Of a stretch of 64,000 bases of DNA, positions 19,947-48,802 are shown piece after piece. The translations under genes and the position numbers were made by a program. Each line of letters starts with the position of its first letter. Positions within the stretch are counted from its first letter, which is position 1. The notes beneath the pieces were generated by a model. That model was given only the letters and a program-made list of their open reading frames with translations. It did no database searches and was not told where the DNA came from. Source of the DNA: a virus (Duplodnaviria > Caudoviricetes); IMG/VR virus record IMGVR_UViG_3300021376_000006; one strand, written 5' to 3'.

Positions 19947-20672
19947 GTGAAAAATTTAATAACAACAGGATGTAGCTTTACAGCAGGCGTGATTCCGTTG
20001 CCTCACGAAAACAAAATAGCTTGGAAAAATCGAGGTAGCGTATGGCCACACTTTTGTTTTGCTGAAATGAATCCTGCACAAGATAAATTTGTTAATTTGG
20101 CTATACCTGGCGGTGGCAACATAGCTGCATTTACCAATTTAATCTATGTGTTAGAAAATAATAAAACATTTACACCTGACAATACGCTCATAGGTATAAA
20201 TTTAACTGGAATGCATCGATATGACGCAATTAGTGATTCTGCAAATGTTCAAGTGAACAAAAATTTGTGTTGTATTGATATCGATGGCATAACACACATT
20301 AGTGATACTTTAGGATTTGGTTGGATCACTGGCAAACATTTTGGTAATCAAAAAGTCGATATTTTATCAGCCGTCACTATTATTCAAGGTCTATCGTATC
20401 TAGAATTGCGTAAATTTAATTATTTTTTTATGTTAATGAATAATGCAATTTATGATTATTCTCCAGAATGGTTTCAACAGGCTTTAGATATAAGAAAATC
20501 CAACTGGATAACATTCAATAAACATATAGGCATGTTTGAATTTGTTCGCAATCTAAATCAAGTAACAGAAGATGGGCATCCAACTACAGATCGGCATAAA
20601 AGAATTAGTGAATTTGTGATCGAGTATATTAAAAATAATTGCAAAAATTATTTAGACAATTATGCAGCATAA
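19947..20672 (+). CDS. SGNH/GDSL-like protein, copy 1
   Basis: TGCSFTAG (block I), LAIPGGGN (block II), C-terminal DGHP. GTG start abuts the upstream stop. Confidence 0.55.
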   Translation: MKNLITTGCSFTAGVIPLPHENKIAWKNRGSVWPHFCFAEMNPAQDKFVNLAIPGGGNIAAFTNLIYVLENNKTFTPDNTLIGINLTGMHRYDAISDSANVQVNKNLCCIDIDGITHISDTLGFGWITGKHFGNQKVDILSAVTIIQGLSYLELRKFNYFFMLMNNAIYDYSPEWFQQALDIRKSNWITFNKHIGMFEFVRNLNQVTEDGHPTTDRHKRISEFVIEYIKNNCKNYLDNYAA

Positions 20673-21951
20673 TTTATGTATGGCACCTTGGACTCATACT
20701 TATTTGAGTCCACAAACTGAACGACGCATGTGTTGTGCCAGTAGAGAACCCGCACAAAATTTTAAACAGTATATTGATAGTGCCGTGGGCACAGGCAAGT
20801 ATATTCCTATAACACTTGAAGAGCATTGGAACAGTGATCATATGCGTAGTGTACGCCGACGCATGATGGCCGGAGAAGTATTACCCGAGTGTGAAGTATG
20901 TAACGATCGATTGTTAAACACAGATGTTTACCGCAGTTATTTTAACAATTTATTTGCCCATAAGTACAAACAAGTAGTAGAAACAACAGACGCTTCGGGA
21001 CACACAACAATGGAGCCTGTTTCATGGGATTACAGATTCAGTAATCTTTGCAATTTCAAATGTCGTATGTGCGGCGACATGTTAAGTAGTTCGTGGGAAA
21101 GCGAACAACGACAACACGAAATGATCGATTGGTCTGATCCCAAGAATTCGTGGATGCGACCTGAAATTAAAAAACAAATTGAACAGTTCCAGACAACTCA
21201 GATTGAAGCAGAGTTTGCAGCAGCAGTAGAGGACCACCGTGTAGAGGAAGTTTATTGGGTGGGAGGAGAACCGTTAATGTATGAACAGCATTGGCGGTAT
21301 ATGCAGCGCATTATAGAACTAGGAGATGGACCACGTGTTTACGCCAGATACAACACTAATCTTAGTCGCGTTGATTATAGAGGTTGTAATCTTTATAAAG
21401 ATGTACTTGCTCATTTGCGCGATTGGCAAATTTGTGCCAGTATCGACGGCACAGGCCAAATTGGAGAATATATCCGAACAGGTCTTGATTATGAAGCATG
21501 GCTTGCAAATTTTAAGACAGGAATTAGATTCTCTACGCACTGTAGGCAAATGAGATTGGACTTTACACTTACCCTACCGGGCATGTTTGAAGTCGTTAAT
21601 ATACAGCAGTTGGGTAATGATTTGGGCGTTGACATCCTTAGTAAGGTTGTCTTTAGTTTCTCGCCGGACATAGTTATGTCACCTTTAGCCCTACCTAGAT
21701 CCATTTTAGATCCCTGGGTAGATGAAATCATAAACGCCGGAGTAGCCGGACCATTAAAGGATACACTAGTTCAGTTACGAACACGCCCTACCTTTCAAGA
21801 GCAATATGGCGAACAAGCTTACCGCATTGGTCTTGTGCAAGGCCGAGCTCGTGTGTTAAAATTAGAAGCTATTCGTAGCCAATCTATTACTATGGATCAA
21901 ATACTTTCAAAGAGAGCAGATGTGTATGAGTGGTGGACTGCCATTGGTTAA
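20662..21951 (+). CDS. Radical SAM protein 5 with N-terminal Twitch-like Cys domain
   Basis: CNFKCRMC and VGGEP; N-terminal CMAPW..MCC..CEVC. Confidence 0.85.
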   Translation: MQHNLCMAPWTHTYLSPQTERRMCCASREPAQNFKQYIDSAVGTGKYIPITLEEHWNSDHMRSVRRRMMAGEVLPECEVCNDRLLNTDVYRSYFNNLFAHKYKQVVETTDASGHTTMEPVSWDYRFSNLCNFKCRMCGDMLSSSWESEQRQHEMIDWSDPKNSWMRPEIKKQIEQFQTTQIEAEFAAAVEDHRVEEVYWVGGEPLMYEQHWRYMQRIIELGDGPRVYARYNTNLSRVDYRGCNLYKDVLAHLRDWQICASIDGTGQIGEYIRTGLDYEAWLANFKTGIRFSTHCRQMRLDFTLTLPGMFEVVNIQQLGNDLGVDILSKVVFSFSPDIVMSPLALPRSILDPWVDEIINAGVAGPLKDTLVQLRTRPTFQEQYGEQAYRIGLVQGRARVLKLEAIRSQSITMDQILSKRADVYEWWTAIG

Positions 21952-23020
21952 AATAGTATTGCGTAATCCGTTAAATTATGCAGATCAAATTGATTATAAT
22001 ATTGTACCTTACGATAATCAATTGGCCGAAGATTGGATTGTTGCTCTTAAAGAATTACTACAAAATAAAAATCTATTAGAAAAAAACTTTTGTTTTTTAG
22101 GATTTCCTAATACAGCAAGAACAGTAGAATATTTGTGCCAACAACTCGATGAAGCGGTAGCAACAATTAATGATTTTTTTAGTGATTATTATATTGATGA
22201 TTTTTACACACCATCCAATGTAATTGCCGATGACTATGCGCCTGATGGTCCTAATCACGAAAAATTAAATAAACTACATAATCATTTTGAAGTGTTACAA
22301 GGCACAGTATGGGAACTCAGTGATTATTATAAACGAGCCAATTATGAAACAAAATATGCTATTAGACAATTAAACAATATTTGTCACGAACTGGAAACTT
22401 TAATTTTAAGTCGAAGAAAATTGGTTACTGTGCCTCAATGGGTGCGTCCTAGTCAAATCACAACATTTATAAATGCCGCTAGATATGATCTAAAAGACGA
22501 ACATAGGAAATTATTTGCAAATAATGGCTACGATCGTGTATTAGGCGGCGTTTACATGCATTGGACACAAATTGGCAAAACGTACTATGAAGTTTTTCGA
22601 GATGAAGGTGCTCCTAATTTGACCGATACTGTGTGTGAAGCAATCACAGATTTGAAATATTACAGTGGCGAGTTTGATATAGAATGGGGTAATGATATGA
22701 TTTATGGCAGTGCAAATGTACCTTGGTATAATCAAGATCAAGATTTATTTAGAGCCTGGATGAGAAATAACGGCAAAGATGCTCTTGATCCAAAATTAAG
22801 TTGTGGATATCTTCCTATAGCACAAGTGGATTTACAAGGGAGTTTTGGAACGTTAGATTATCGAAAAATTTGGGAAATGCTAGGAGGACACCTTGACATC
22901 TATAAAATTGAAGTAGACGGAACAGCTAGTACCTTTGATTATTCATGGGCTGATGCCAATTATAAACAGATGCAAATAGATATGATGAGACCGGGATATG
23001 ATTATAGTAGCAGGCGGTGA
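21920..23020 (+). CDS. Hypothetical protein
   Basis: 366-aa ORF overlapping both neighbours; true start may be the TTG near 21944. No motif recognised. Confidence 0.6.
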   Translation: MCMSGGLPLVKIVLRNPLNYADQIDYNIVPYDNQLAEDWIVALKELLQNKNLLEKNFCFLGFPNTARTVEYLCQQLDEAVATINDFFSDYYIDDFYTPSNVIADDYAPDGPNHEKLNKLHNHFEVLQGTVWELSDYYKRANYETKYAIRQLNNICHELETLILSRRKLVTVPQWVRPSQITTFINAARYDLKDEHRKLFANNGYDRVLGGVYMHWTQIGKTYYEVFRDEGAPNLTDTVCEAITDLKYYSGEFDIEWGNDMIYGSANVPWYNQDQDLFRAWMRNNGKDALDPKLSCGYLPIAQVDLQGSFGTLDYRKIWEMLGGHLDIYKIEVDGTASTFDYSWADANYKQMQIDMMRPGYDYSSRR

Positions 23021-23837
23021 CAGTTTTGTGTACGGCAGCGAATTAGCCGACTGTCAGGATAATACCCCGGCTGGAATTTTTGGACACAGTGTTAGTACAT
23101 TTTCGGCATTGATATCAAAAAATGCAGATTACAAATGTGTAGCTTGGCCTGGATATGCCAATGACAGTATCGCAAGAACTGTTATTGCAGAGTCTAGCAA
23201 ACACCCTAAATGTGGAGTTATTGTAAGTTGGACATTCCCGGGGAGGTACGAATTTAGATTCAGTTATGATACAGGACAGAAAAAAAGTCCGTGGTACGCT
23301 TTTAACAGTTGGACTATTCAAAATCCTGATGTTGTTACTAGAGAATTTAGTAAAAAAAATCAATATATCGAAGAAGTATTCAAGCAGCACCATATCAAAG
23401 CCAAACAAACTGGCACATTATTTTTTGCTAAAACATTTTACGAACATGTAGGTAGTAGCGAGTATTGGGAAATCTACAGCACACTTAAAGAAATTGTTTA
23501 CTTGCAAAATTATTTAAAAGTGAACAGTATTCCGTATCTGTTTACCTGTGCAGATAATAGCATATTGTATAACTATACCATAGAGCAGGCAGATGGATAT
23601 ATTACAAGTTTGCAAAAGCAAATTGATTTTAATAATTGGTTTTGGTTTCCAGCCGGAACCAATCAGAATGAAACCAAAACACCAAGAGGATTTTATCAAT
23701 GGGCGGTTGAAAATAAATATCCTGTAGGTACCACACACCCATTAGAACAAGCACATAAAGTGGCAGCAGAATTAATAAAGGACAAATTCAATGAACTGGT
23801 TACGCAACCTTTGGAACAGAGTTCAATTAGAAATTAG
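22998..23837 (+). CDS. SGNH/GDSL-like protein, copy 2
   Basis: GGDSFVYG, WPGYAN, SWTFPGRYE, THPLEQAH. Confidence 0.6.
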   Translation: MIIVAGGDSFVYGSELADCQDNTPAGIFGHSVSTFSALISKNADYKCVAWPGYANDSIARTVIAESSKHPKCGVIVSWTFPGRYEFRFSYDTGQKKSPWYAFNSWTIQNPDVVTREFSKKNQYIEEVFKQHHIKAKQTGTLFFAKTFYEHVGSSEYWEIYSTLKEIVYLQNYLKVNSIPYLFTCADNSILYNYTIEQADGYITSLQKQIDFNNWFWFPAGTNQNETKTPRGFYQWAVENKYPVGTTHPLEQAHKVAAELIKDKFNELVTQPLEQSSIRN

Positions 23838-23892
23838 ATATAGACGTAAACTACGAGAACTTCGTAAACGCGATCCATTTATTTACAAATGA
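23791..23892 (+). CDS. Small basic peptide, 33 aa (MNWLRNLWNRVQLEIRYRRKLRELRKRDPFIYK)
   Basis: Below the ORF-track cutoff. ATG at 23791; its TGA (23890-92) overlaps the next ATG (23889) as ATGA. Confidence 0.6.
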   Translation: MNWLRNLWNRVQLEIRYRRKLRELRKRDPFIYK

Positions 23893-24557
23893 TTAAAAAT
23901 ATCCTATCAGTTGGCGATAGTTTTACTTATGGCGAAGAGCTTAAAAATATTTACAATGCATGGCCATATCAAGTCGGTAAAATTTTAAATGCAGACGTGG
24001 TTAATTTAGCCAAACCAGCTGCTAGTAATGACAAAATTTTAAGATTAACCTTAGATTATCTCTTACGAAATAATAATGTTGATTTGGTTTTAATTGGATG
24101 GTCTAATCCTGGTAGAATGGAATTCAGTGATGAACTGGGTTATTATGATGTATGGCCCGGGTATACTGTAGATTCACATCTCTCCAATAATTTCCATTGG
24201 CGGAAAAACATGATAGAATATGTTTCTCAATATCATAATCCACAAGCTTTACATTTAAAATTTATTCAACAAATAATTTTGTTGCAAAGCTATTTAGAAA
24301 GTAAAAAAATCAAGTATGTGATGATGAACATAATGCAAAATGATTATTATAAAAAATTATATTTTGATGGAATCAAGCAATATCATGATCAAATAAACAC
24401 AGACAATTTTTTAGATTTTAATATCAGTGGAATGATAGAATGGACAAAAAATTGTAAACAGGGTTCAAGGGGGCATTTCCTTGAAGACGGCCATACATTG
24501 GTAGCTGGAAAAGTGTTAAACTATGTAAATCAGCAGTGCTGGGCATTGACACCATGA
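23889..24557 (+). CDS. SGNH/GDSL-like protein, copy 3
   Basis: VGDSFTYG, LAKPAASN, GWSNPGRME, GHFLEDGH. Confidence 0.6.
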   Translation: MIKNILSVGDSFTYGEELKNIYNAWPYQVGKILNADVVNLAKPAASNDKILRLTLDYLLRNNNVDLVLIGWSNPGRMEFSDELGYYDVWPGYTVDSHLSNNFHWRKNMIEYVSQYHNPQALHLKFIQQIILLQSYLESKKIKYVMMNIMQNDYYKKLYFDGIKQYHDQINTDNFLDFNISGMIEWTKNCKQGSRGHFLEDGHTLVAGKVLNYVNQQCWALTP

Positions 24558-25201
24558 TCCATGCAATAGGAGATAGTTTCACATACGGTGACGAACTTGA
24601 GTGTAAAAACTTAGCGTGGCCTACGATCTTGTCTAATAAATTACATAAACATGTGGCCAATTTAGGAAGACCTGCAAGTGGAAATACACGTATAGTTAAA
24701 AGATTGATTCACTGTGTTTTAGACAAAAGTGATTTAGTTATTATTGGATGGTCAGATTGTAATAGACAGGAATTTGCCGACGAAATTGGAGTGTATGATA
24801 TATGGGCCGGTAGAAATTACAGAGCCATACAATTAGATGATCCCACCCATCGAATTAATTTAATCAAGTATATAACTGCATACGATGTGCCTGAGTACTA
24901 TTATGCCAATTGGTTAAGACAAATTTTATTGGCTCAAAGTTTTTGTGAAGTTCATAATGTTCCTTGTGTTATGTTTATTGCTTGTGGTTCTCATCAAAGT
25001 CATCAAATTTATCATTCCAAGCACAAAACCTTGATTGATGCAATAGATCATTCAATGTTTGTTGATGGTATGTTTACAAGTGTAGGAGAATGGACCTACG
25101 GTTTGCCACATGGACCCGGTGGCCATCCACTTGAACAAGGCCATGAAATTATAGCAGAAAAAATTTATGAACATATTAGGAATAAGTGCTGGCTTTCATG
25201 A
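24554..25201 (+). CDS. SGNH/GDSL-like protein, copy 4
   Basis: IGDSFTYG, LGRPASGN, GWSDCNRQE, GHPLEQGH. ATG at 24554 in an ATGA overlap. Confidence 0.6.
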   Translation: MIHAIGDSFTYGDELECKNLAWPTILSNKLHKHVANLGRPASGNTRIVKRLIHCVLDKSDLVIIGWSDCNRQEFADEIGVYDIWAGRNYRAIQLDDPTHRINLIKYITAYDVPEYYYANWLRQILLAQSFCEVHNVPCVMFIACGSHQSHQIYHSKHKTLIDAIDHSMFVDGMFTSVGEWTYGLPHGPGGHPLEQGHEIIAEKIYEHIRNKCWLS

Positions 25202-26648
25202 CGCTGCTGCCGCAGTAATCAATCGCCAAGGCGATATACTGTATGCAGCGCATAGCGAACGTTACAGCCGGGTCAAAAACGATGCCAATCTTTGTCGTGC
25301 CATGATGGATGATATCATGGATCAGTTTCCTATTGCTCATGTTGCATATTATGAAACTCCGTGGAAGAAACAATTACGAAGATTGTACAGTGAAGAAGGT
25401 ATAGAGTGGAATCGTTTATCTACTCGAAGGATCTTGACAGAACAGTTTGGCAGATGGGCACATATTCCCAGTTACAGTAGTCATAATCATCACATGAGTC
25501 ATGCAGCAGCCGGCTTCCAAACAAGTCCATACAATCGCGCAACAGTAGTAGTCATTGACGCAATTGGTGAGTGGGACACTGTTAGCATATGGGGCGCGGA
25601 GTACGACAGTCGTGGAATAGCCCAATATAAACGACTATGGGGTCAACGATATCCTCATAGTATAGGATTGTTTTATAGCGCAATGACTCAAAGAGTAGGA
25701 TTAAAACCTAACGAAGATGAATACATTTTAATGGGTATGAGCGCATATGGAAGAAACGGTTATGCCAGCACACTACAAGATGAGTTGATTGTAAACGAAT
25801 GGGAAACTACATTTAAACAAAATTTACATGTTGGTATTACAAATGATTTTTTAACAGATGTGCATGACGCAGATTTAGCAGCAGCAGCACAAAAAGTTTT
25901 AGAAAGATTGGTATACAATGTGATGCGTCGAGCAAGAGATTTTGCGTGGAGTGCAAATCTTGTTTATATGGGTGGTGTAGCATTAAACTGTTTGGCAAAT
26001 AGAAACCTTGGAGAATACTTTGAAAATATTTGGATTATGCCTAATCCTGGTGATGCTGGTAGCAGTCTTGGCGCTGCCGCTCTCGCTTATGGGCGTCGTG
26101 TTAATTGGGTCGATGCTTATCTGGGCCACGATATTCCGGGACCATATCCCGTTACACCCATACTTGATAGTTTATTATCTGACGGTATTTGCGGTGTTGC
26201 TAGTGGTCGTGCAGAGTTTGGTCCCCGTGCTTTAGGTAATAGAAGTTTATTAGCGGACCCAAGAGGACCTAACATCAAGGATCGAGTAAATGAAATTAAA
26301 CGCAGACAAAAATTCAGACCTTTTGCCCCTGTCATATTGGAGGAGATGGCTGATCAGTACTTTGATTTCCGCAACGGGTGGCCTAATAGCCGTTATATGC
26401 AGTCAGTCGCTCATTGTTGGTATCCTAGCCGTTTTCCTGCTATCTGCCATGTTGATGGGACCAGTCGAGTACAAACGGTACCAGCAGACGGTTCGGGCAT
26501 CAGACAATTATTGGAAAAATGGTTTGTAATGACTGACTGCCCTATGCTACTAAACACAAGTTTAAATATCAAAGGTGAGCCAATGGTAAATGATCGAGAC
26601 GACGCAGATAGATTTGAAAGTAAATACGGTGTAAAGGTATTTTCATGA
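25167..26648 (+). CDS. Carbamoyltransferase, NodU/CmcH/TobZ family
   Basis: ILGISAGFHDAAA, SERYSRVKND, HHMSHAAA, DAIGE, GRAEFGPRALGNRSLLADP, RPFAP, LLNTSLN. Confidence 0.92.
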   Translation: MNILGISAGFHDAAAAVINRQGDILYAAHSERYSRVKNDANLCRAMMDDIMDQFPIAHVAYYETPWKKQLRRLYSEEGIEWNRLSTRRILTEQFGRWAHIPSYSSHNHHMSHAAAGFQTSPYNRATVVVIDAIGEWDTVSIWGAEYDSRGIAQYKRLWGQRYPHSIGLFYSAMTQRVGLKPNEDEYILMGMSAYGRNGYASTLQDELIVNEWETTFKQNLHVGITNDFLTDVHDADLAAAAQKVLERLVYNVMRRARDFAWSANLVYMGGVALNCLANRNLGEYFENIWIMPNPGDAGSSLGAAALAYGRRVNWVDAYLGHDIPGPYPVTPILDSLLSDGICGVASGRAEFGPRALGNRSLLADPRGPNIKDRVNEIKRRQKFRPFAPVILEEMADQYFDFRNGWPNSRYMQSVAHCWYPSRFPAICHVDGTSRVQTVPADGSGIRQLLEKWFVMTDCPMLLNTSLNIKGEPMVNDRDDADRFESKYGVKVFS

Positions 26649-27349
26649 GAGTGTTAACAAATGGCTGTAGCTTTAGCAGAGGTCCTGATAGTTGGCCGCA
26701 TGCTTTACAATCAATGTATAATTTTGAATTGATAAATCTCGCACAGTCCGGTGCTGGTAATACTTATATTTTTGAATCTACAGTTACAGAATTATCATTA
26801 AGAAATTACGATGCAGTTATTATTATGTGGTCTCAACCACATAGAATAGATTACAGAACCGTAAAGAATTTTAACACCATTTTTACTTCAAATTTTCAGC
26901 ACAAGCAAAACGATTGGCCTGAAAAAATAATACATCCAGTTAATGATCAAGACTTTGTTCAAAAAGATTGGATTTTTGGTTGTGGGTATTTAAATAACGA
27001 TAAAGAATGTATGAATTTGTTTGATTCATACTATAAGAATGTAAGTTATAATCAAATGGTAGACTCTTTCCTCATAAAGATAATTTCTTTACAAAGTATA
27101 CTAATGCAGCTGGGGGTATTATATATATTTACTTTTTATCAAGATTATGTTTTAGACTTAAAAAGTATAAATGAAAATCTATATAATTTAATCAATTGGA
27201 CGAATTGTTGTACAACAAATAATATATACAGTATCACTAAAAAAAATAATTGGTTTGATAAAGATAAAATACATCCAGGCAAATTAGCTCATTATGAATG
27301 GGCACTAGAACTTAAAAAACATATAAAAGATAAAAAATTAGATTTCTAA
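26645..27349 (+). CDS. SGNH/GDSL-like protein, copy 5
   Basis: NGCSFSRG, LAQSGAGN, MWSQPHRID, DKIHPGKLAH. AT-rich. Confidence 0.55.
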   Translation: MRVLTNGCSFSRGPDSWPHALQSMYNFELINLAQSGAGNTYIFESTVTELSLRNYDAVIIMWSQPHRIDYRTVKNFNTIFTSNFQHKQNDWPEKIIHPVNDQDFVQKDWIFGCGYLNNDKECMNLFDSYYKNVSYNQMVDSFLIKIISLQSILMQLGVLYIFTFYQDYVLDLKSINENLYNLINWTNCCTTNNIYSITKKNNWFDKDKIHPGKLAHYEWALELKKHIKDKKLDF

Positions 27350-28338: not shown

Positions 28339-28808
28339 AAGACAAATTTAAACGTGCCTACATGAAAACAGCACAAACGTTTGCAGAACTTAGTTTGGCA
28401 CGTAGATTGAAAGTTGGAGCTATTATTGTCAAAGATGACAGAATTATTTCAATTGGCTATAATGGAATGCCTGCTGGTTGGGATAACAATTGCGAGGATG
28501 AATTGGTAACTGAATACAATAACGCTAAAGATTTGGACGGTAATACAATACAAGTGAAAACTTCTACACTAACCACCAAACCAGAAGTCCTGCATGCTGA
28601 AACCAATGCTATTGCCAAATTAGCAAAATCGCCAGAATCTGGACAAGGTGCTACAATGTTTGTAACACATAGTCCTTGTTTAGAATGTGCAAAATTGATA
28701 TATCAATCAGGTATTACCAAGGTTGTATATAGAGATTTGTATCGAAATAAAAACGGTTTAAATTTTCTAGAAAAGTCTGGTCTAGAGCTTGAGCAATTGC
28801 TGAATTGA
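28335..28808 (+). CDS. dCMP deaminase
   Basis: RRLKVGAIIVKD, GYNGMP, HAETNAI, SPCLECAK zinc motifs. Confidence 0.9.
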   Translation: MKDKFKRAYMKTAQTFAELSLARRLKVGAIIVKDDRIISIGYNGMPAGWDNNCEDELVTEYNNAKDLDGNTIQVKTSTLTTKPEVLHAETNAIAKLAKSPESGQGATMFVTHSPCLECAKLIYQSGITKVVYRDLYRNKNGLNFLEKSGLELEQLLN

Positions 28809-29988
28809 GATTTGTTTGTAATTCGTTCCATATTTGATCAACAAAGTGTTTACTGTAAAACAAATTGTAATTGTACTCAAGAACTTCCTCCATGTCATAT
28901 AACATTTTTTCTAAATCATTATTTGATAGTTTGCTTAAACTTTTTATTATATCAACGACCATATCGATTCGCTCAATTGGATCTTGGCATTGATCATAAC
29001 TTTCATCCCACCATTTGTCAAATGTTATAAATCCGTATTCTTTTAAGTATGCAAGATTGTCAACACACCCTAACAATATAAAAGGCTGTTTCAACGCTAT
29101 AGGTTTAAAAATTTTTTCAGTTAAATGTTTCTTGCGTTCCCAGAAACAGGTTTCTGTAACAACATGAACAAAACTTTGCATCAATTTTGGAATAGGCTCA
29201 AGAGTAAAACTTGAATTGTCAATAGGCATATTGTGCTCACTATCAATTCTTAGACTTGGAAGATTGGTTATATAATCTAATTCTTGGAAAACAAATTTTT
29301 TGTCTAACCCAAACTGTTCTAATGTTTTGACAATTGAGAACTGTAATTTACCGTGAACTGGACAAACATTACTAAAACTTATATGGCCATAATCTAATAG
29401 ATTTTGTTGACTGAGTTTAGCGACAAAAAAAGCTCTATAAATTCTAGAATTGCCAGTTATCCTATTAAATGTAATAAATTTTTTTTCTATTTTTCTTTTT
29501 CGTATTGGTATAATTTCACTACAGAATTGATAACCTCGGTACCAATCTATTGCTGCTAGGGCATGGTAAAAATAGTAACAATCAATATAATTAAATTTTT
29601 CTAAAATTTTATTTTTTTCGTCACTATCTTTTTCTGTGTTAAGTAGTATAGTAGGAACTTTGTCTTTATATTTTAATGATCTGTATTTTAAAGATATATC
29701 ATTTTTCCAATATTGACTATATTGTGTAGATTCTTTGATTTGTTGACTGCCATTGGAAGTTACAGTCAAATTATCAAATTTTGAAAAAGTGTCAAAGTTA
29801 TAATGGTAGTTTAAAGGTTCTTGATCAAAACACAGAAAAAATACATCAGGGTCGGTTGTACCTAATATTTCAAGCTGTGAGAACGCAGTTGCACCAAACG
29901 GAAAGAAGTAAGCAAGTTTTGGCGATATATCGTAGTTTATTTTTGCATGTTGTAGAATAAAATTATAGTGGCTGTTTATATTATACAT
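28714..29988 (-). CDS. GT10-like glycosyltransferase-like protein, copy 2 (antisense to its neighbours)
   Basis: HVVTETCFW..KKHLTEKIFKPIALKQPFILLG...LAYLKEYGFITFDKWWDESYD. AT-rich 424-aa ORF. Confidence 0.55.
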   Translation of the reverse strand: MYNINSHYNFILQHAKINYDISPKLAYFFPFGATAFSQLEILGTTDPDVFFLCFDQEPLNYHYNFDTFSKFDNLTVTSNGSQQIKESTQYSQYWKNDISLKYRSLKYKDKVPTILLNTEKDSDEKNKILEKFNYIDCYYFYHALAAIDWYRGYQFCSEIIPIRKRKIEKKFITFNRITGNSRIYRAFFVAKLSQQNLLDYGHISFSNVCPVHGKLQFSIVKTLEQFGLDKKFVFQELDYITNLPSLRIDSEHNMPIDNSSFTLEPIPKLMQSFVHVVTETCFWERKKHLTEKIFKPIALKQPFILLGCVDNLAYLKEYGFITFDKWWDESYDQCQDPIERIDMVVDIIKSLSKLSNNDLEKMLYDMEEVLEYNYNLFYSKHFVDQIWNELQTNLNSAIAQALDQTFLENLNRFYFDTNLYIQPW

Positions 29989-34518: not shown

Positions 34519-34745
34519 AAAAATTTTAATCTAAAGTAGATTTCTGCTTCTGGATTAAGATTTCCCGTAATAACTACACGATACCCAAGAGTGTCATGGT
34601 CGGGCGTGACATGAAAAGTGGGCTCAGAAGTCACGTTCTCCATTATCCATTTGCCTTTTTCTGTTTCTTGCCATTCTCCAATAGGAAAGGCAGCATACAG
34701 ATAAGGATCCTCAACATCTGCCATGTGAAAGCTATGTAGTATCAT
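34515..34745 (-). CDS. Hypothetical protein
   Basis: 76 aa, ATGA-coupled on both sides. Confidence 0.55.
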   Translation of the reverse strand: MILHSFHMADVEDPYLYAAFPIGEWQETEKGKWIMENVTSEPTFHVTPDHDTLGYRVVITGNLNPEAEIYFRLKFL

Positions 34746-35818: not shown

Positions 35819-36729
35819 ACAGCCATCCGGGCCTTGATAGCACCATGGCTTTGATATCCTTCGAGTCGAATATCAGACATGGTAAATTTTGTAATATCAG
35901 TTATCTCAGGATTGAGCCACAATTGCGGTGCAGGCAATGGTTCACGTGTCAACTGTTCTTTTACTTGCTCTACATGATCTAGGTATATGTGTGCGTCGCC
36001 TAGAACGTGAACAAACTCTCCTACATCCAAATCACACACTTGTGCAATCATTGCTGTTAGTAGCGAATAGCTGGCGATATTAAAAGGTACACCCAAAAAC
36101 ATATCGCAGGATCGCTGATACATCTGGCACGACAATCTTCCATCTGCTACATAAAACTGTGCAAAACAATGACACGGTGGCAGGGCCATTTGATCTAATT
36201 CTCCAGGATTCCATGCAGTTAATATGTGTCGTCGTCCGTGCAGATCTTGCTTAATACCGTCGATTAAATTTCGTAGTTGATCGACTTCTTTAATTTCAAC
36301 GTTATTGCCTACTCTTCGGTAAGTGCTTCCAAACCCGTCTTTGAAAGATCCTTCTGTTTCGCGTTCTTTGATAGTACGCCAATGTCTCCACTGTACTCCG
36401 TACACACGACCTAGATCTCCTTCAAATTGGGCCCGCGATCGCCAATATGGTGCTAGTGCATTGGGCGTCCATATAGTTACTGTACCATCCCGTGTGCCAT
36501 GCGTTATCTCAGCCAATCTACGTTCATCGCCTGAACCTTCAATCATCCATAATAGTTCGCCCACCACAGCATTCCATGCTAGTTTTTTTGTAGTTACAGC
36601 AGGAAAACCTTGACTTAAATCATAACGTTGCTGCATACCAAACTTGCTTATGGTACCTACACCCGTGCGATCATCTTTGCGTGTTCCTGTTTCTAATATA
36701 TCTTTAAGAACATTGTGGTATGTTTTCAT
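35815..36729 (-). CDS. thyA: Thymidylate synthase
   Basis: DRTGVGT, TTKKL, GRVYGVQWR, LPPCH, YQRSCDMFLGVPFNIASY, HIYLDH. Confidence 0.95.
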   Translation of the reverse strand: MKTYHNVLKDILETGTRKDDRTGVGTISKFGMQQRYDLSQGFPAVTTKKLAWNAVVGELLWMIEGSGDERRLAEITHGTRDGTVTIWTPNALAPYWRSRAQFEGDLGRVYGVQWRHWRTIKERETEGSFKDGFGSTYRRVGNNVEIKEVDQLRNLIDGIKQDLHGRRHILTAWNPGELDQMALPPCHCFAQFYVADGRLSCQMYQRSCDMFLGVPFNIASYSLLTAMIAQVCDLDVGEFVHVLGDAHIYLDHVEQVKEQLTREPLPAPQLWLNPEITDITKFTMSDIRLEGYQSHGAIKARMAV

Positions 36730-37442
36730 AAGTTTAATTTTTCTCGAATATGATTAAATAAAATTTTATGTCCATTATGATTAGGATGCACTCCATCTGG
36801 GTAAAAGACACTTTCTCTAAATACCAATGAATTCGTTTCTTGATACAAATAAAAATCTTCAATCACATTCTTTGCCTGTAGATCGTTAAACAATTTTAAA
36901 TCAACTAATTCAATTCTGCAGTTTGGATTTGATAATATTCTAAATTTGTTATCTATTGTGTTACTATACTCATTAAAATGACCTACTAATATATTAACCC
37001 ACGAAGATACTATAGGAATAAGATTATTATAATTAGAAATAGAGTAATCTAAATTGTTAAGTGCTCCAATCATATAAATTTTCCTATTGAATTGTTTGCA
37101 TAGATTGTTAAGCATATTATAAGTTGAATCTAGTAAGATGTCAACTAACCCTGATAGACTTTGGTTCTCTTGTAGGCATTTAGTGAGACTATTTTTAGTA
37201 AAAAATGTATCTCTAGTTGCGTCTGTAGTTATAAAAAATATAAAGTCACTGCGGTCTATATTAACTATTTCTTTACTTAACAAACGTACTAAATTAAGAT
37301 TAGAACTGGCCGGACGACTTAGATTTATAACGGTGTAACCTAAATTACTTAGAAAGAATTCTAGACCTTTGTGAATTATTTTGTGATTTTCCCATACTCC
37401 GGCACCCCAACTATCGCCAAAGATATAAATTTTTCTTGGCAT
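36726..37442 (-). CDS. SGNH/GDSL-like protein, copy 6
   Basis: FGDSWGAG, LSRPASSN, DGVHPNHNGH. AT-rich; sits between folA and thyA. Confidence 0.6.
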   Translation of the reverse strand: MPRKIYIFGDSWGAGVWENHKIIHKGLEFFLSNLGYTVINLSRPASSNLNLVRLLSKEIVNIDRSDFIFFITTDATRDTFFTKNSLTKCLQENQSLSGLVDILLDSTYNMLNNLCKQFNRKIYMIGALNNLDYSISNYNNLIPIVSSWVNILVGHFNEYSNTIDNKFRILSNPNCRIELVDLKLFNDLQAKNVIEDFYLYQETNSLVFRESVFYPDGVHPNHNGHKILFNHIREKLNL

Positions 37443-37942
37443 TATCTAAAAATATCTATATTTTTATAAATGCAAAAGTTTAAAGTTTTATCGGCACTAG
37501 GGCGTGAACTTGTTATACGCATACCCATCATAAAAGATCGTAAGTCAATACGAACATCCGAAAAAGCTGCGCCTCGCCTGTGGGTTACATAAGCGTAATC
37601 AATTAAATCCTTGCATTCCATTATGATACTAGGGCCACCTAGAATAAACACATTTTTCTTTGGATATAATTCTTGTAAATTTTTAATTGCGTCCTTATAA
37701 TCACCATGTAATCTACGTACACCTGAGTGCTGTAAAGGTTGATTAGAAACAACACAATTTATTCTATCAGGTAAAGGTTTACTCATTTTAGGATCATCCC
37801 AAGTGTTACGGCCCATTACAACTATTTGATTGAGGGTGTGCTCACGAAACCATTCCATATCTTCTGAATGTATTGGCCATGGCAAGGTTCCACGGTTACC
37901 AAATGTTCCCAATTGGTCTGTGGCGAATATGGTGCAAATCAT
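37442..37942 (-). CDS. folA: Dihydrofolate reductase
   Basis: GTFGNRGTLPW, DMEWF, VVMGRNTW, PLPDRINCVVS, ILGG. Confidence 0.9.
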   Translation of the reverse strand: MICTIFATDQLGTFGNRGTLPWPIHSEDMEWFREHTLNQIVVMGRNTWDDPKMSKPLPDRINCVVSNQPLQHSGVRRLHGDYKDAIKNLQELYPKKNVFILGGPSIIMECKDLIDYAYVTHRRGAAFSDVRIDLRSFMMGMRITSSRPSADKTLNFCIYKNIDIFR

Positions 37943-37945: not shown

Positions 37946-38776
37946 TTATAATCTTTCTGGGATAAATTTTTCAAAAAAATAAGGTTGTTTTTGAGTAATT
38001 TTTTTATCAATATCCCGCACCCAATTTACTGTAGATTCATTTATATCTAAGTTAGTTATAAATTTAAGTGCGGTTAAATGTTCTAATGGGGTTGGATGGC
38101 TGTCTTGTGCTGTATTAGTGAAGTATAAATGTTTATTATTACCTATAAGTTGCAAAAAAGAATCAACTTCGTTATTTATTGATGTATTATAAACAGTTCT
38201 ATCATAAGAAAAAATATCAATTAGTTTTGGCCAATCAACACCTGCGTGTCTATCGTATAAATCTTGTAATTTATGTTGTGCTGTTAAAGAAACTTCTTTT
38301 GACACTATCGGAAAATTAATTTTACGAATTTTCTTTAGGGTATCTCTATATAATGAGCCTGCTTTAGAATATAAATCATAATCTAAAAAACTTAAAAAAG
38401 AGTAACTACTTTTTGATGATGAAAGTATTTTGTCTATAGCTGTGAATAATGCATAACTTATAATTTCTGCTCCATTTGGACAACTGACAGGTGACTTAGT
38501 GTCAAATATAGAATGATAATGACTCCATTCATTCATTTGATAATAGTCAATTCGAGTTATTCCGGACCACATTACAATTACGGTGTCGTCTTCGGTAAAA
38601 GTTTTTTTGATAAGACATTCAATAATTGAATTAAATATAAAGTTGTTTCCTGCACCTGGTCTAGCCCAGTTTTCAAAATAATCATATTCTTTACCTAGTA
38701 TGTCCGCCCAAGTAGGCCAACTATATGAAGTCATACTACAACCAAAGGTGTATAAATTGCCTTTGCGACTTTTCAT
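37946..38776 (-). CDS. SGNH/GDSL-like protein, copy 7
   Basis: FGCSMTSY, WARPGAGN, MWSGITRID, DSHPTPLEH. Confidence 0.55.
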   Translation of the reverse strand: MKSRKGNLYTFGCSMTSYSWPTWADILGKEYDYFENWARPGAGNNFIFNSIIECLIKKTFTEDDTVIVMWSGITRIDYYQMNEWSHYHSIFDTKSPVSCPNGAEIISYALFTAIDKILSSSKSSYSFLSFLDYDLYSKAGSLYRDTLKKIRKINFPIVSKEVSLTAQHKLQDLYDRHAGVDWPKLIDIFSYDRTVYNTSINNEVDSFLQLIGNNKHLYFTNTAQDSHPTPLEHLTALKFITNLDINESTVNWVRDIDKKITQKQPYFFEKFIPERL

Positions 38777-46523: not shown

Positions 46524-46894
46524 ATGTATTCAATCATTAAAACGCTGACTATAAAACCAATTAACAGATAAGTTATGGCATGAATCAGCTGATCAACCCC
46601 AATCCAAAACCAAAAAGCATCTGCATCAGTGGACCATCTCACTGTGAGTCGACGATGTGCCATATCCACGAAGTAATGTACGACAGCATCAAATACAGCC
46701 AGCATGACCGAAGCTTGTAAAGTCAAAAAATGCATCAAGATTACATAACTCAAAGCACCGTGAAGCCCGGCATGTTGTAATCCGCCCAATCGACCAAAGT
46801 GTCCTTTGTCTTTGAGCATTCGATCACTTTGCCAGCAAAAGTCTGCTAAGAAATGTTTAATAAACAACAATGCCAATATCAGCCATGTGATCAT
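46520..46894 (-). CDS. DUF3307-like membrane protein
   Basis: KHFLADF..Q, HAGLHG, HYFVD and DQLIH His/Asp motifs with hydrophobic helices. Confidence 0.7.
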   Translation of the reverse strand: MITWLILALLFIKHFLADFCWQSDRMLKDKGHFGRLGGLQHAGLHGALSYVILMHFLTLQASVMLAVFDAVVHYFVDMAHRRLTVRWSTDADAFWFWIGVDQLIHAITYLLIGFIVSVLMIEYI

Positions 46895-47880: not shown

Positions 47881-47886
47881 GCGTTA

Positions 47887-47915
47887 ATAGTAGCATATTA
47901 TTGTACTCCAGTCAA
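47887..47915 (-). promoter_or_regulatory. sigma70 promoter predicting a leaderless mRNA
   Basis: TTGACT, 17 nt, TACTAT, 6 nt, ATG (47880); no Shine-Dalgarno. Confidence 0.6.
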
Positions 47916-48095
47916 GAACAAATTGGCCAAATTTAAATTAGATTTTAACCCATTATGTATTTTGTCTCTAGCCAGATCTCCTTGTGGATTAAATTTGTAA
48001 GATATAGGTACTGACCAATTTGTATCTACGTTTTCGGGTTGATCGGTTCCAGACCAATGTTCTAAATTATTTTTTTGATACCAGCTGTATGGCAT
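47898..48095 (-). pseudogene. Short ORF, possibly a truncated gene remnant
   Basis: 65 aa; its 3' end overlaps the RNase H promoter. WSGTD..E..W...ISYKFNPQG looks like an N-terminal fragment of a longer protein (recall, unverified). Confidence 0.3.
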
Positions 48096-48115
48096 TATTT
48101 TTGATTGCCAAAAAT

Positions 48116-48802
48116 TTAAATTCGTAATAGTTTTTTTAGATAAGGTGTTAAAAATTCAGCCCATTTCCTATGAGCAGCAGGACCAAAATGATATGACGAA
48201 TTTGATGTAAAACCACTGTCGGTGAGCCATTTCCAATAAGTCAGATTTGGATCATATGGATCAATAAAACAATGATGCCAATCTTTTTTTAATTGGTCAT
48301 TAAAATGATTAAAGGTATTGAAAAATAAATGAGGAATTTTCAAATCTAATAGCTGGGTATGAAAGTTGTAAATTTCATTGTGTGCTTTAGAAGTAACCAC
48401 GGACCAGTCTAAATTAATTATATAATTTTTATAACGTTCTTTTATTGGATCAGGCCAATCATTGCCTATACCACCACCATTAATTTGCCAATACACATCA
48501 TCATGCAACCACTCTTCTCTCTCCCATGTACTCCATCCAATAATTATTGCATCTGGTTTGTGATTTTCGAGATATTGTTTTGTTGTTCTTATAATTCTAG
48601 TATTAGAACTCGCCGATTCTGCGTCGCAATGTAAAATTGCAAATATATCATTAGCAATAATGCATCCATAACTTACACGTTCATTATCTGGATGTGGAAT
48701 ACGACCTAGTGCATAGTAAAATGGATCGTCTTCGGCAAAGCAATAATTGTTTACGGCTTCTGCACCGGCACTGTGACTGTCGCCATTTACATAAAGAATC
48801 AT
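48116..48802 (-). CDS. SGNH/GDSL-like protein, copy 8
   Basis: NGDSHSAG, AESASSN, GWSTWEREE, YHFGPAAH. Confidence 0.6.
   Translation of the reverse strand: MILYVNGDSHSAGAEAVNNYCFAEDDPFYYALGRIPHPDNERVSYGCIIANDIFAILHCDAESASSNTRIIRTTKQYLENHKPDAIIIGWSTWEREEWLHDDVYWQINGGGIGNDWPDPIKERYKNYIINLDWSVVTSKAHNEIYNFHTQLLDLKIPHLFFNTFNHFNDQLKKDWHHCFIDPYDPNLTYWKWLTDSGFTSNSSYHFGPAAHRKWAEFLTPYLKKLLRI

What the first reader, a model, noticed from the sequence alone, without database searches (positions are those of the whole stretch)
19947..48802. Eight-member SGNH-like family with a non-canonical W[ST]xxxRx[ED] block
Seen: eight ORFs (19947, 22998, 23889, 24554, 26645, 36726, 37946, 48116) share G[DC]S near the N-terminus, an oxyanion-like segment ending in N (e.g. 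PAASN, PGAGN) and a terminal (D)xH(P) His. Six carry W[ST]xxxRx[ED] where SGNH proteins usually have GxND. Three have GCS instead of GDS. Known: SGNH folds act as esterases and as O-acyltransferases on glycans. Inference: an expanded, fast-diverging acyl transfer/removal family that could vary the decoration pattern between phage lineages.
Basis: partly seen in the sequence, partly recalled or inferred. Interest (0 to 1): 0.68.

Follow-up and report, generated by a model that had tools for sequence, protein, structure and literature searches.

The report
Eight-copy phage SGNH acyl-transfer family
A giant lake-water phage carries eight diverged copies of an unstudied esterase-like enzyme family (around Pfam DUF6071); copies come and go between related phages and sit beside a carbamoyl-adding enzyme and a tiny tyrosine-tailed peptide, so they probably move small chemical groups onto or off a sugar-based product.

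Summary
All eight ORFs are real paralogs: each is recovered by a profile built from the other seven (E 6.5e-9 to 2.9e-31; best unrelated ORF E>=0.07). Two models, one GDS and one GCS member, have the SGNH-hydrolase fold (Z 16.0 and 11.3). G[DC]S, N, W[ST]xxxRx[ED] and H[PF]xxxxH form the signature of a large, almost purely viral superfamily around Pfam DUF6071, so the family is catalogued but nobody has studied it (0 papers found). GCS is a common variant (60 of 156 representatives). The usual DxxH aspartate is mostly missing. There is no signal peptide, so the proteins are cytoplasmic.

Ten related 317-374 kb phage genomes carry 3-11 copies each. Against the closest relative, the copies are the least conserved genes of the island (53-70% versus 77-88% identity), and three are absent. 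One clade lies between a near-invariant 33-residue peptide ending DPFIYK and a NodU-type carbamoyltransferase. This order recurs in many phages, in Ralstonia phage RsoM2USA and in a bacterium.

Best reading: Ser-His acyl or carbamoyl transferases/esterases that tailor a sugar-derived product, possibly through a tyrosine shuttle like DltX-DltD or PatA-PatB. No activity was tested.

The scan has reported this operon before on other DNA.

The parts
19947..20672 (+). SGNH-family paralog 1 (241 aa). Motifs: GCS, PGGGN, L-T-xxx-R-x-D, D-G-H-P...H. It lies between two N-twitch radical SAM genes.
   Evidence: Leave-one-out E 7.5e-12. No Pfam hit. Its ortholog in L064 is 59% identical.
22998..23837 (+). 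SGNH-family paralog 2 (279 aa). Motifs: GDS, PGYAN, W-T-xxx-R-x-E, T-H-P...H.
   Evidence: Leave-one-out E 3.6e-17. DUF6071 scores only 12.4 bits. It has its own clade of 55 rows from 46 loci, support 100.
23791..23892 (+). 33-residue micro-ORF ending RKRDPFIYK. Its stop overlaps the ATG of paralog 3 (ATGA). Candidate tyrosine shuttle. This is context, not a family member.
   Evidence: Found in 74 of 80 carbamoyltransferase-centred and 69 of 80 SGNH-centred viral loci. There are 144 hits on the operon strand against 1 on the other strand. It is also present in RsoM2USA and in a bacterium.
23889..24557 (+). SGNH-family paralog 3 (222 aa). Motifs: GDS, PAASN, W-S-xxx-R-x-E, G-H-F...H. Formal DUF6071 member.
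   Evidence: PF19547 53 bits against a cut-off of 27. AlphaFold2 pLDDT 92.9. Z 16.0 to TesA.
24554..25201 (+). SGNH-family paralog 4 (215 aa from ATG 24554). Motifs: GDS, PASGN, W-S-D-xx-R-x-E, G-H-P...H. Formal DUF6071 member, directly upstream of the carbamoyltransferase and overlapping it.
   Evidence: PF19547 32.1 bits. Its ortholog sits in the same position in L064, L071 and L073 at 70-72% identity.
25167..26648 (+). NodU/CmcH-type carbamoyltransferase (context; conserved partner gene).
   Evidence: Carbam_trans_N and Carbam_trans_C, E 2.4e-38 and 3.6e-46. E 1e-138 to 1e-140 to the bacterial carbamoyltransferases that follow a family member.
26645..27349 (+). SGNH-family paralog 5 (234 aa). 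Motifs: GCS, SGAGN, W-S-xxx-R-x-D, D-K-I-H-P...H. It starts on the carbamoyltransferase stop codon (ATGA).
   Evidence: Leave-one-out E 1.1e-23. Absent at this place in L064.
36726..37442 (-). SGNH-family paralog 6 (238 aa), the most canonical copy. Motifs: GDS, PASSN, T-T-D-xx-R, D-G-V-H-P. It is inserted between thyA and the DHFR gene.
   Evidence: Lipase_GDSL PF00657 scores 27.2 bits against a cut-off of 23.6, full length. Leave-one-out E 6.5e-9. thyA and the DHFR gene abut in L064 and L073.
37946..38776 (-). SGNH-family paralog 7 (276 aa). Motifs: GCS, PGAGN, W-S-xxx-R-x-D, D-S-H-P...H, with an extra helical C-terminal part.
   Evidence: No Pfam hit. Among 42 orthologs at 34-78% identity, GCS is kept in 39 of 39 and W, R, D and H are invariant. 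Model pLDDT 88.6. Z 11.3 to a GDSL protein.
48116..48802 (-). SGNH-family paralog 8 (228 aa). Motifs: GDS, SASSN, W-S-xxx-R-x-E, Y-H-F...H. It lies next to the 7-deazaguanine gene set.
   Evidence: Leave-one-out E 6.5e-13. DUF6071 scores 15.7 bits.
14558..21951 (+). Five N-terminal-twitch radical SAM paralogs (context; the conserved core of the island).
   Evidence: NCBIfam NF033640, E 3e-83 to 1e-115 for all five. Present in 72 of 80 related loci.

Best explanation
The eight ORFs encode old paralogs of one SGNH-hydrolase-fold family. This is the mostly viral superfamily of which Pfam DUF6071 models one branch.

Anatomy:
- They are small (215-279 aa) single-domain proteins. The nucleophile Ser sits at residues 7-14, so there is no signal peptide and they act in the infected cell's cytoplasm.
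- They keep the block I Ser (G-[DC]-S), a small residue at the block II oxyanion position, and the block V His.
- In place of block III GxND they have W-[ST]-x3-R-x-[ED]. The central strand ends at W, and the invariant Arg opens an extra beta-hairpin.
- The DxxH Asp is usually lost.

Most likely mechanism: covalent Ser-His catalysis through an acyl-Ser (or carbamoyl-Ser) intermediate, with the [ST] hydroxyl and/or the Arg replacing the missing Asn of the oxyanion hole.

Role: they are the variable tailoring layer of a conserved jumbo-phage island. That island holds five N-twitch radical SAM enzymes, a NodU-type carbamoyltransferase, a DegT aminotransferase, a sugar dehydratase/epimerase, a methyltransferase and two unknown paralog families.

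The most specific model concerns the copies next to the carbamoyltransferase. In it, the carbamoyltransferase loads the C-terminal Tyr of the 33-residue DPFIYK peptide. The SGNH paralogs then take the group from that Tyr and place it on different hydroxyl or amino positions of a sugar-derived product, as DltD does with DltX and PatB does with the PatA tail.

Shown: family, fold, motif conservation, copy-number variation and synteny.
Inferred: catalysis, donor and acceptor.

My odds: SGNH-fold family 0.95; active Ser-His enzymes 0.8; part of the island's pathway 0.65; tyrosine-shuttle transfer 0.35.
For: Family:
- Leave-one-out profiles recover every member.

Fold:
- P0003 model, pLDDT 92.9: Z 16.0, rmsd 2.8 A over 166 residues to E. 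coli TesA. Every one of the 50 listed matches is an SGNH/GDSL-type protein.
- GCS member P0007, pLDDT 88.6: Z 11.3, rmsd 3.1 A over 155 residues to 1z8h. All top 50 matches are SGNH.

Catalytic residues:
- A profile alignment to TesA (92.6% probability) puts G-D-S on the TesA nucleophile, the P-[GA] position on the block II Gly, and the first C-terminal His on TesA His157.
- Among 156 aligned proteins, Ser is kept in 155, His in 154, Arg in 156, W in 145, [ST] in 150, [ED] in 146 and Asn in 151.
- Orthologs of P0007 keep GCS in 39 of 39. This indicates purifying selection on an active site.

Viral, multi-copy and variable:
- Nearest Atlas clusters are 93-100% viral.
- Only 3 of 401 sampled bacterial genomes have a hit.
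- 70 of 80 related 20-kb loci hold 2-7 copies.
- Ten genomes of 317-374 kb hold 3-11 copies.
- Identity to the closest relative is 53-70%, against 77-88% for neighbouring genes, and three copies are absent there.

Pathway link:
- The window's genes from 12.7 to 35.8 kb recur in 42-70 of 80 loci.
- A family member lies directly upstream of the carbamoyltransferase in 38 of 79 loci chosen by the carbamoyltransferase alone.
- The same holds in 3 of 3 bacterial genomes with a hit and in cultured phage RsoM2USA.

Shuttle:
- The 33-residue ORF ending RKRDPFIYK is coupled (ATGA) to paralog 3.
- It lies upstream of the carbamoyltransferase in 74 of 80 loci. Either it abuts the carbamoyltransferase, or one or two SGNH genes lie between them.
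- Its F-I-Y matches the start of the published acyl-shuttle motif FXYXXF (FIYANF in N. gonorrhoeae PatA). SGNH proteins take acyl groups from that Tyr (PMC12148441).
Against: - No activity, substrate or product is known for any member. I found no paper on DUF6071.
- Two defining SGNH residues (block III Asn, block V Asp) are missing, so the chemistry may differ from that of classical esterases.
- The peptide tail is F-I-Y-K-stop, not a full FXYXXF. The peptide is basic and soluble, not a membrane microprotein.
- The peptide-carbamoyltransferase pair occurs without an adjacent SGNH gene in about 40% of loci. In those cases the SGNH would have to act in trans, or is not needed.
- Three of the eight copies (36726, 37946, 48116) lie outside the island, among nucleotide-metabolism genes.
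- Carbamoyl-serine intermediates are known (my own knowledge) to turn over slowly in serine hydrolases. This makes carbamoyl relay chemically less comfortable than acetyl relay.
- The peptide could instead be a substrate of the radical SAM enzymes.
Confidence: 0.5

Rival explanations
1. The proteins are plain hydrolases rather than transferases. They would be cytoplasmic O-deacylases or decarbamoylases that trim acetyl or carbamoyl groups from pathway intermediates, like the GDSL protein SxtL. SxtL sits beside the carbamoyltransferase SxtI and is proposed to decarbamoylate saxitoxins.
For: - Most characterised small SGNH proteins among the structural matches are esterases.
- The GDSL-carbamoyltransferase neighbourhood has a published parallel in the sxt cluster, with decarbamoylation proposed for SxtL (PMC2679770).
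- A family member lies directly upstream of the carbamoyltransferase in phages and bacteria.
Against: - A hydrolase that undoes the neighbouring enzyme's reaction, encoded in 3-11 copies per genome, is hard to rationalise.
- The SxtL role is itself only proposed.
- The conserved Tyr-tailed peptide between the genes has no role in this reading.
Confidence: 0.25
2. The proteins are lipid or thioester hydrolases of the TesA / lysophospholipase L1 type. They would act on host membrane lipids, acyl-CoA or acyl carrier proteins, for example to release acyl chains or remodel the host envelope.
For: - TesA is the best structural match (Z 16.0).
- Some public records name members 'lysophospholipase L1-like esterase'.
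- In two bacterial genomes the family member directly follows a ~2000-residue type I polyketide synthase. There a releasing thioesterase would make sense.
Against: - TesA is simply the minimal SGNH core. Identity is only 14-16% and the match says nothing about substrate.
- The names come from automatic annotation.
- The phage neighbourhood is sugar enzymes, radical SAM enzymes and a carbamoyltransferase, with no lipid genes.
- The TesA oxyanion Asn and triad Asp are missing.
Confidence: 0.1
3. The family tailors a DNA hypermodification rather than a glycan or small molecule. The copies would add or remove acyl groups on modified bases or their nucleotide precursors.
For: - Copies 6 and 7 flank the DHFR gene next to thyA. 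Copy 8 abuts the 7-deazaguanine genes. A dCMP deaminase, a P-loop kinase and a nucleotidyltransferase-like gene lie inside the island.
Against: - ThyA scores as a canonical thymidylate synthase (E 1e-105).
- thyA and the DHFR gene are adjacent without the SGNH gene in close relatives, so copy 6 is a recent insertion into a plastic spot.
- The bacterial homologs sit with sugar aminotransferase or polyketide genes, not DNA genes.
- No SGNH enzyme is known to me in any DNA-modification pathway.
Confidence: 0.06
4. Some or all copies are non-catalytic: pseudoenzymes, binding proteins or virion parts such as receptor-destroying esterase modules of tail fibres.
For: - Two canonical SGNH residues are missing.
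- P0006 has a faint hit (E 0.0045) to the C-terminal end of a PHROG tail-fibre family.
- The island follows tail-fibre-like genes (Peptidase_G2 domain at 7792-9417).
Against: - Ser, His and Arg are kept in 154-156 of 156 representatives and in every ortholog set examined.
- The proteins are single-domain, with no fibre or spike attachment region.
- The PHROG hit covers only 30 residues around block V.
Confidence: 0.04

Closest known systems
Pfam DUF6071 (PF19547), a family of unknown function
   Same: P0003 (53 bits) and P0004 (32.1 bits) pass its cut-off of 27 bits. The relatives of P0003 listed nearly all carry it. G[DC]S, N, W[ST]xxxRx[ED] and H[PF]xxxxH form the family-wide signature.
   Different: Six of the eight copies fall below the Pfam cut-off or get no hit. 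The P0007 ortholog group carries no Pfam domain at all. The real superfamily is therefore wider than the Pfam model. No function or paper is attached to the family.
E. coli TesA/TAP (thioesterase I / lysophospholipase L1), the minimal SGNH hydrolase
   Same: Same fold (Z 16.0, rmsd 2.8 A, 166 residues). The block I Ser, the block II small residue and the block V His align.
   Different: TesA has a signal peptide, a block III GGND with the oxyanion Asn, and a DxxH Asp. The phage proteins have none of these, and they carry an extra beta-hairpin after block III. Identity is 14-16%.
SGNH acyltransferases fed by a tyrosine acyl shuttle: DltD with DltX, PatB with the PatA C-terminal FXYXXF motif, OatA (PMC12148441)
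   Same: An SGNH protein is encoded next to a short peptide whose C-terminal tail carries an invariant Tyr in an F-x-Y context (F-I-Y here, FIYANF in N. gonorrhoeae PatA), and next to the enzyme that could load it.
   Different: No MBOAT or AT3 membrane protein is present. The candidate loader is a soluble NodU-type carbamoyltransferase. The peptide is basic and soluble and ends F-I-Y-K. The group moved would be carbamoyl rather than acetyl or D-alanyl. The system is cytoplasmic and phage-encoded. None of this has been tested.
SxtI-SxtJ-SxtK-SxtL block of the saxitoxin gene clusters (PMC2679770)
   Same: A carbamoyltransferase lies next to very small ORFs of unknown function and a GDSL-lipase homolog.
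   Different: Homology of the phage proteins to SxtL, SxtJ or SxtK was not tested here. SxtL is about 425 residues and is proposed to be a decarbamoylase.
Carbohydrate esterases of SGNH fold (CE2, CE3 and acetyl-xylan esterases such as Est2A and Axe2)
   Same: They are structural matches at Z 13-14. CE2 enzymes also work with a Ser-His pair (my own knowledge).
   Different: Those are secreted, often multi-domain, and keep the oxyanion Asn. There is no sequence-level relationship beyond the superfamily.

Membership tests
SGNH hydrolase superfamily | Three-layer alpha/beta/alpha SGNH fold | tested here: met
   - P0003 model: Z 16.0, rmsd 2.8 A, 166 residues to TesA. Foldseek probability 1.00.
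- P0007 model: Z 11.3, rmsd 3.1 A, 155 residues to 1z8h.
- The other six copies were not folded. They are linked to these two by profile.
SGNH hydrolase superfamily | Block I: GDS(L) with the nucleophile Ser near the N-terminus | tested here: met
   Ser is invariant in all eight copies and in 155 of 156 representatives. It aligns with the TesA nucleophile. The middle residue is D (93) or C (60).
SGNH hydrolase superfamily | Block II: oxyanion Gly | tested here: inconclusive
   The profile alignment puts the residue after P/S (G or A in the eight) on TesA Gly44. The family's invariant Asn lies three residues later, at the start of the next helix. Its role is unknown.
SGNH hydrolase superfamily | Block III: GxND with the oxyanion Asn | tested here: not met
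   W-[ST]-x3-R takes its place at the end of the third strand, and no Asn is conserved in that loop. By position the [ST] may take the Asn's place. That is inference only.
SGNH hydrolase superfamily | Block V: DxxH (catalytic His with its Asp) | tested here: inconclusive
   The His is met: 154 of 156, aligned to TesA His157. The Asp is mostly missing. 112 of 154 representatives have no acid at His-3 or His-2. Among the eight, only 26645 and 36726 have D at His-3.
SGNH hydrolase superfamily | Ser and His within hydrogen-bond distance; Ser-dependent ester hydrolysis or transfer | not testable with these tools
Pfam DUF6071 (PF19547) | Score at or above the gathering cut-off of 27 bits | tested here: inconclusive
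   - Met by P0003 (53 bits) and P0004 (32.1 bits).
- Below the cut-off for P0002 (12.4), P0005 (12.6) and P0008 (15.7).
- No hit for P0001, P0006 and P0007.
- All eight are tied together by leave-one-out profiles.
Pfam Lipase_GDSL (PF00657) | Score at or above the cut-off of 23.6 bits | tested here: inconclusive
   Met only by P0006 (27.2 bits, full-length match 1-208 of 208). P0004 scores 19.1 bits, and the rest have no hit.
Tyrosine acyl-shuttle SGNH transferases (DltD/DltX, PatB/PatA) | A partner peptide or tail with an invariant Tyr in a C-terminal FXYXXF motif | tested here: inconclusive
   The 33-residue ORF ends D-P-F-I-Y-K. F, I and Y are kept in 89-90 of the 94 distinct peptides. Only the F-x-Y half of the motif is present (motif from PMC12148441).
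Tyrosine acyl-shuttle SGNH transferases (DltD/DltX, PatB/PatA) | An MBOAT or AT3 membrane acyltransferase that loads the Tyr | tested here: not met
   None of the window ORFs I scanned against Pfam, including all of 14.5-39.8 kb, matched an MBOAT or AT3 family. The only candidate loader is the soluble carbamoyltransferase.
TesA / lysophospholipase L1 | Exported protein with a signal peptide, and a full Ser-Gly-Asn-His set with Asp | tested here: not met
   The nucleophile Ser lies at residues 7-14 in the eight and at 8-12 in most representatives, which leaves no room for a signal peptide. The Asn and Asp are missing.
Virion receptor-destroying esterases (SGNH modules of tail spikes or fibres) | SGNH domain fused to a fibre or spike attachment or trimerisation region | tested here: not met
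   All eight are single-domain proteins of 215-279 residues. The only link is a faint 30-residue PHROG tail-fibre hit for P0006.

The most novel reading that the evidence does not exclude
The DUF6071-type SGNH proteins, the invariant 33-residue DPFIYK peptide and the NodU-type carbamoyltransferase form a soluble, membrane-independent tyrosine-shuttle relay.

In this relay the carbamoyltransferase makes O-carbamoyl-Tyr on the peptide. Each SGNH paralog then delivers the group, through a Ser intermediate, to a different position of the island's sugar-derived product. Gain and loss of paralogs would therefore rewrite the decoration pattern between phage lineages.

This would extend the DltX/PatA acyl-shuttle principle to the cytoplasm, to viruses and to carbamoyl groups. 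It would also suggest a role for the small unexplained ORFs beside carbamoyltransferases in bacterial clusters.
Probability: 0.3. Interest if true: 0.8.

Novelty: new variant of a known kind. Interest (0 to 1): 0.55.

Why it matters
SGNH enzymes are workhorses of glycan acylation and de-acylation, and their four-residue signature is used to recognise them. This is a very large branch: more than 12,000 clusters at 50% identity match the profile. It is almost entirely viral. It drops two of the four signature residues yet keeps Ser, His and a new invariant Arg under strong selection, and nobody has tested a member.

Three features make it a tractable entry point into what aquatic jumbo phages synthesise with their radical SAM islands:
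- copy-number variation inside a conserved jumbo-phage biosynthetic island;
- a conserved position between a tyrosine-tailed micropeptide and a carbamoyltransferase;
- presence of the same module in a cultured phage (Ralstonia phage RsoM2USA).

It is also a possible new version of the tyrosine acyl-shuttle mechanism.

Tried and rejected
- DNA search of 19947-27349 against cultured phages: no match.
- tblastn of P0006, P0007 and P0008 against cultured phages: no match. P0003 hit only RsoM2USA.
- PHROGs, PADLOC and NCBIfam gave nothing useful for the eight.
- The genome-contig scan with the P0003-clade patterns gave only short block I matches, so it is not a fair census of bacteria.
- hhalign in global mode gave a meaningless alignment. 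Local mode was used instead.
- The idea that each SGNH pairs one-to-one with a radical SAM enzyme is rejected. Only 25 of 218 SGNH genes abut a radical SAM gene, and the copy numbers correlate at r = 0.13.
- No SGNH-radical SAM fusion was found in my loci. The search for longer relatives of P0003 also found none, which is weak evidence.
- Asp is not enriched right after [ST] (19 of 156). The proposed register [ST] = block III Asn therefore stays an inference.
- The 366-residue neighbour at 21920 is not a hidden family member, and the Atlas gave nothing for it.
- Unknown paralog family A gave nothing against the PDB or Pfam.
- Complex prediction of the carbamoyltransferase with P0004: no verdict (best score 0.23, mark 0.32). 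This is not evidence either way.
- RNA runs: no RNA holder was listed.
- Ser-His geometry could not be measured, because the structure tools return no coordinates.

Full report
**Observation**

The eight ORFs are present as described.

In a MAFFT alignment the paralogs share only 17-24% identity. Six columns are invariant: the G and S of block I, one N, one R and two C-terminal H.
- Copy 19947 has L in place of W. Copy 36726 lacks both the W and the acid.
- GCS is found in 19947, 26645 and 37946.

This is not a chance motif collection. A profile built from any seven members finds the eighth at E 6.5e-9 to 2.9e-31, while no other ORF of the window scores better than E 0.07. I found no ninth member in the window.

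**Fold**

AlphaFold2 on P0003 with 44 homologs gave pLDDT 92.9. Foldseek and VIA-align place it in the SGNH/GDSL fold. The best match is E. coli TesA at Z 16.0, rmsd 2.8 A over 166 residues.

The GCS member P0007 has no Pfam hit. With 42 orthologs it gave pLDDT 88.6 and again only SGNH matches, the best at Z 11.3, rmsd 3.1 A over 155 residues to 1z8h.

Ser-His distance could not be measured, because no coordinates are returned.

**Active-site anatomy**

A profile of about 150 family representatives aligns to TesA with 92.6% probability:
- G-[DC]-S falls on the TesA nucleophile.
- The residue after P/S of the 'PAASN/PGAGN' segment falls on the block II Gly.
- The first C-terminal His falls on TesA His157.

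The second His sits where many SGNH proteins have G-H or G-Y after 'HPN' (my own knowledge).

In both models the third strand ends at the W, and [ST]xxx is a loop. The invariant Arg opens a two-stranded hairpin that classical SGNH proteins lack. W[ST]xxxR therefore does stand where GxND normally is. By simple position the [ST] takes the place of the oxyanion Asn. That is inference, and the following Asp is not enriched.

The family's invariant Asn lies three residues after the block II position, at the start of the next helix. It may be a helix cap rather than an oxyanion residue.

The DxxH Asp is missing in 112 of 154 representatives, whereas 144 of 154 have an acid two residues after the Arg.

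The nucleophile Ser is at residue 8-12 in most members, so there is no signal peptide.

**What the family is**

P0003 and P0004 pass the cut-off of Pfam DUF6071, P0006 passes Lipase_GDSL, and the other five pass nothing.

The eight-paralog profile matched 12,413 cluster representatives at E<=0.001 and 3,899 at E<=1e-10. The middle residue of block I is D in 93 and C in 60. GCS is therefore a standing variant, not a local oddity.

The family is overwhelmingly viral:
- The nearest Atlas clusters are 93-100% viral.
- The closest BFVD structural matches (the first 36 rows) are uncultured tailed phages or unnamed entries.
- Only 3 of 401 sampled genomes of one bacterial phylum had a hit at E<=1e-8.
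- Among cultured phages I found it only in the 344-kb Ralstonia phage RsoM2USA.

No paper mentions DUF6071. Public names are 'hypothetical protein' or the automatic 'lysophospholipase L1-like esterase'.

**Expansion, age and rate**

The window comes from an uncultured freshwater T4-like jumbo phage. Identical proteins occur on lake metagenome contigs of up to 337,915 bp.
- Of 80 related IMG/VR loci of about 20 kb or less, 70 hold 2-7 family members.
- Ten near-complete related genomes of 317-374 kb hold 3-11 matches each.
- In a tree of 177 members, most window paralogs sit in their own clade with orthologs from other contigs. P0007 has orthologs at 34-78% identity that keep every motif residue.

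The paralogs are therefore old and under purifying selection.

They are also the least conserved genes of the island. Against the closest contig (L064) the SGNH orthologs are 53-70% identical. The carbamoyltransferase, kinase, aminotransferase, epimerase, thymidylate synthase and most radical SAM genes are 77-88% identical. Copies 3, 5 and 6 have no counterpart there, and thyA and the DHFR gene abut directly.

**Surroundings**

Window 12.7-35.8 kb is a conserved island; its genes recur in 42-70 of the 80 loci. It contains:
- five N-terminal-twitch radical SAM paralogs (NCBIfam NF033640);
- a NodU/CmcH-type carbamoyltransferase;
- a P-loop kinase, a nucleotidyltransferase-like protein and a dCMP deaminase;
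- a DegT aminotransferase, an NDP-sugar dehydratase/epimerase and a methyltransferase;
- two unknown paralog families.

In loci chosen by the carbamoyltransferase alone, a family member lies directly upstream in 38 of 79, and 31 of 80 have no member within 4 kb. In those loci the 21920-like gene abuts the carbamoyltransferase. The SGNH genes are thus variable inserts in a fixed core. Genomes without an adjacent copy still carry 3-9 copies elsewhere.

A one-to-one pairing with radical SAM genes is not supported.

**The carbamoyltransferase-peptide link**

In all three bacterial genomes with a hit, the family member lies directly upstream of a carbamoyltransferase that matches the window's at E 1e-138 to 1e-140. 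These members carry GCS, PGGSN, W[ST]xxxRxE and H[PF]xxxGH.
- In one genome it lies beside a DegT aminotransferase, a formyltransferase-like protein and a Mur-ligase-like protein.
- In the other two it lies behind a ~2000-residue type I polyketide synthase.

Following a lead from earlier notes of this scan, I checked the 33-residue ORF at 23791-23892.
- It ends RKRDPFIYK, and its stop overlaps the ATG of paralog 3.
- A peptide of this kind is found upstream of the carbamoyltransferase in 74 of 80 loci. It either abuts the carbamoyltransferase, or one or two SGNH genes lie between them.
- It is present in RsoM2USA and in one of the three bacterial genomes.
- There are 144 hits on the operon strand against 1 on the opposite strand, and the tail is nearly invariant.

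Published work shows that SGNH transferases take acyl groups from an invariant Tyr in a C-terminal FXYXXF 'acyl shuttle' motif. Examples are DltD with DltX, PatB with the PatA tail (FIYANF in N. gonorrhoeae), and OatA (PMC12148441).

The phage peptide has the F-I-Y half of that motif. It has no membrane partner; the only plausible loader is the soluble carbamoyltransferase.

A published parallel for a GDSL homolog and small unexplained ORFs beside a carbamoyltransferase is the sxtI-J-K-L block, in which SxtL is proposed to be a decarbamoylase (PMC2679770).

Iyer and colleagues earlier predicted that carbamoyltransferase clusters of jumbo cyanophages decorate polysaccharides or make a secondary metabolite (PMC7824862).

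**Verdict**

The eight genes encode cytoplasmic SGNH-fold enzymes of the DUF6071 superfamily. They most likely use a Ser-His pair for acyl or carbamoyl transfer or removal. They form the variable tailoring layer of a conserved jumbo-phage biosynthetic island.

The tyrosine-shuttle relay is the most specific mechanism the evidence allows (about 0.3-0.35). A plain esterase or decarbamoylase role is the main rival.

The family is catalogued but uncharacterised. Its altered catalytic blocks and its peptide-carbamoyltransferase context make it a new variant of a known kind.

The same operon has already been reported by this scan on other genomes; I scored only what I tested here.

Noticed in passing
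window 13602-14561 (+), 28714-29988 (-), 34742-35818 (-): Three paralogs of an unknown protein family (pairwise E 1e-14 to 1e-20) are conserved in the island of most related phages. They have an invariant block around H-L-T-E-K-T-F-K-P. From memory only, this recalls the Y-x-T-E-K motif of GT10 fucosyltransferases. Pfam, the PDB and PHROGs gave nothing.
   Followed up: partly
window 12679-13608 (+) and 29987-31846 (+): A second unknown paralog pair (E 3e-11). The nearest Atlas clusters are all viral and unnamed, with only a faint lead (0.85) to a GT2-bearing cluster.
   Followed up: partly
window 23791-23892 (+): A 33-residue micro-ORF ending RKRDPFIYK is one of the most conserved features of the whole island (94 distinct variants, tail nearly invariant). 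The 80-aa and 120-aa ORF lists used here cannot show it.
   Followed up: yes
L007 (Ralstonia phage RsoM2USA, MG752970.1, record 123467-129043): This cultured jumbo phage carries, in order: SGNH, N-twitch radical SAM, SGNH, DPFIYK peptide, SGNH, carbamoyltransferase. Every gene is annotated 'hypothetical protein'. It is a culturable system for testing the module.
   Followed up: partly
L115 10029-16100 (-) and L116 3615-9605 (+): In two related high-GC bacterial genomes the SGNH-carbamoyltransferase pair directly follows a ~2000-residue type I polyketide synthase (E 1.6e-86 to a solved polyketide synthase). There the pair serves a polyketide cluster rather than a sugar cluster.
   Followed up: partly
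L117/L118 (G007 contig C9, Legionellales MAG, GC 38%): One contig of a 1.9-Mb MAG holds three family members, an N-twitch radical SAM gene and a family-A homolog. One SGNH matches P0004 at E 1.9e-53. It looks like a phage-derived contig binned into the MAG.
   Followed up: no
window 35815-37942 (-): thyA and the DHFR gene are adjacent in close relatives (L064, L073). In this phage they are split by SGNH copy 6, which points to a recent insertion into a plastic spot of the T4-like backbone.
   Followed up: partly
BFVD entry A0A6J5LTW5 (rank 33): A 602-residue 'Radical_SAM domain containing protein' of an uncultured phage matches the SGNH model over about 200 columns (TM 0.58 by query). It may be a natural SGNH-radical SAM fusion. 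The sequence could not be fetched to check.
   Followed up: no
P0128 (400 aa, ENA contig of 1350 bp): This protein reads as a paralog-2-like copy with an internal deletion, joined in frame to a paralog-3-like copy. It could be a real fusion or an assembly or gene-calling artefact.
   Followed up: partly
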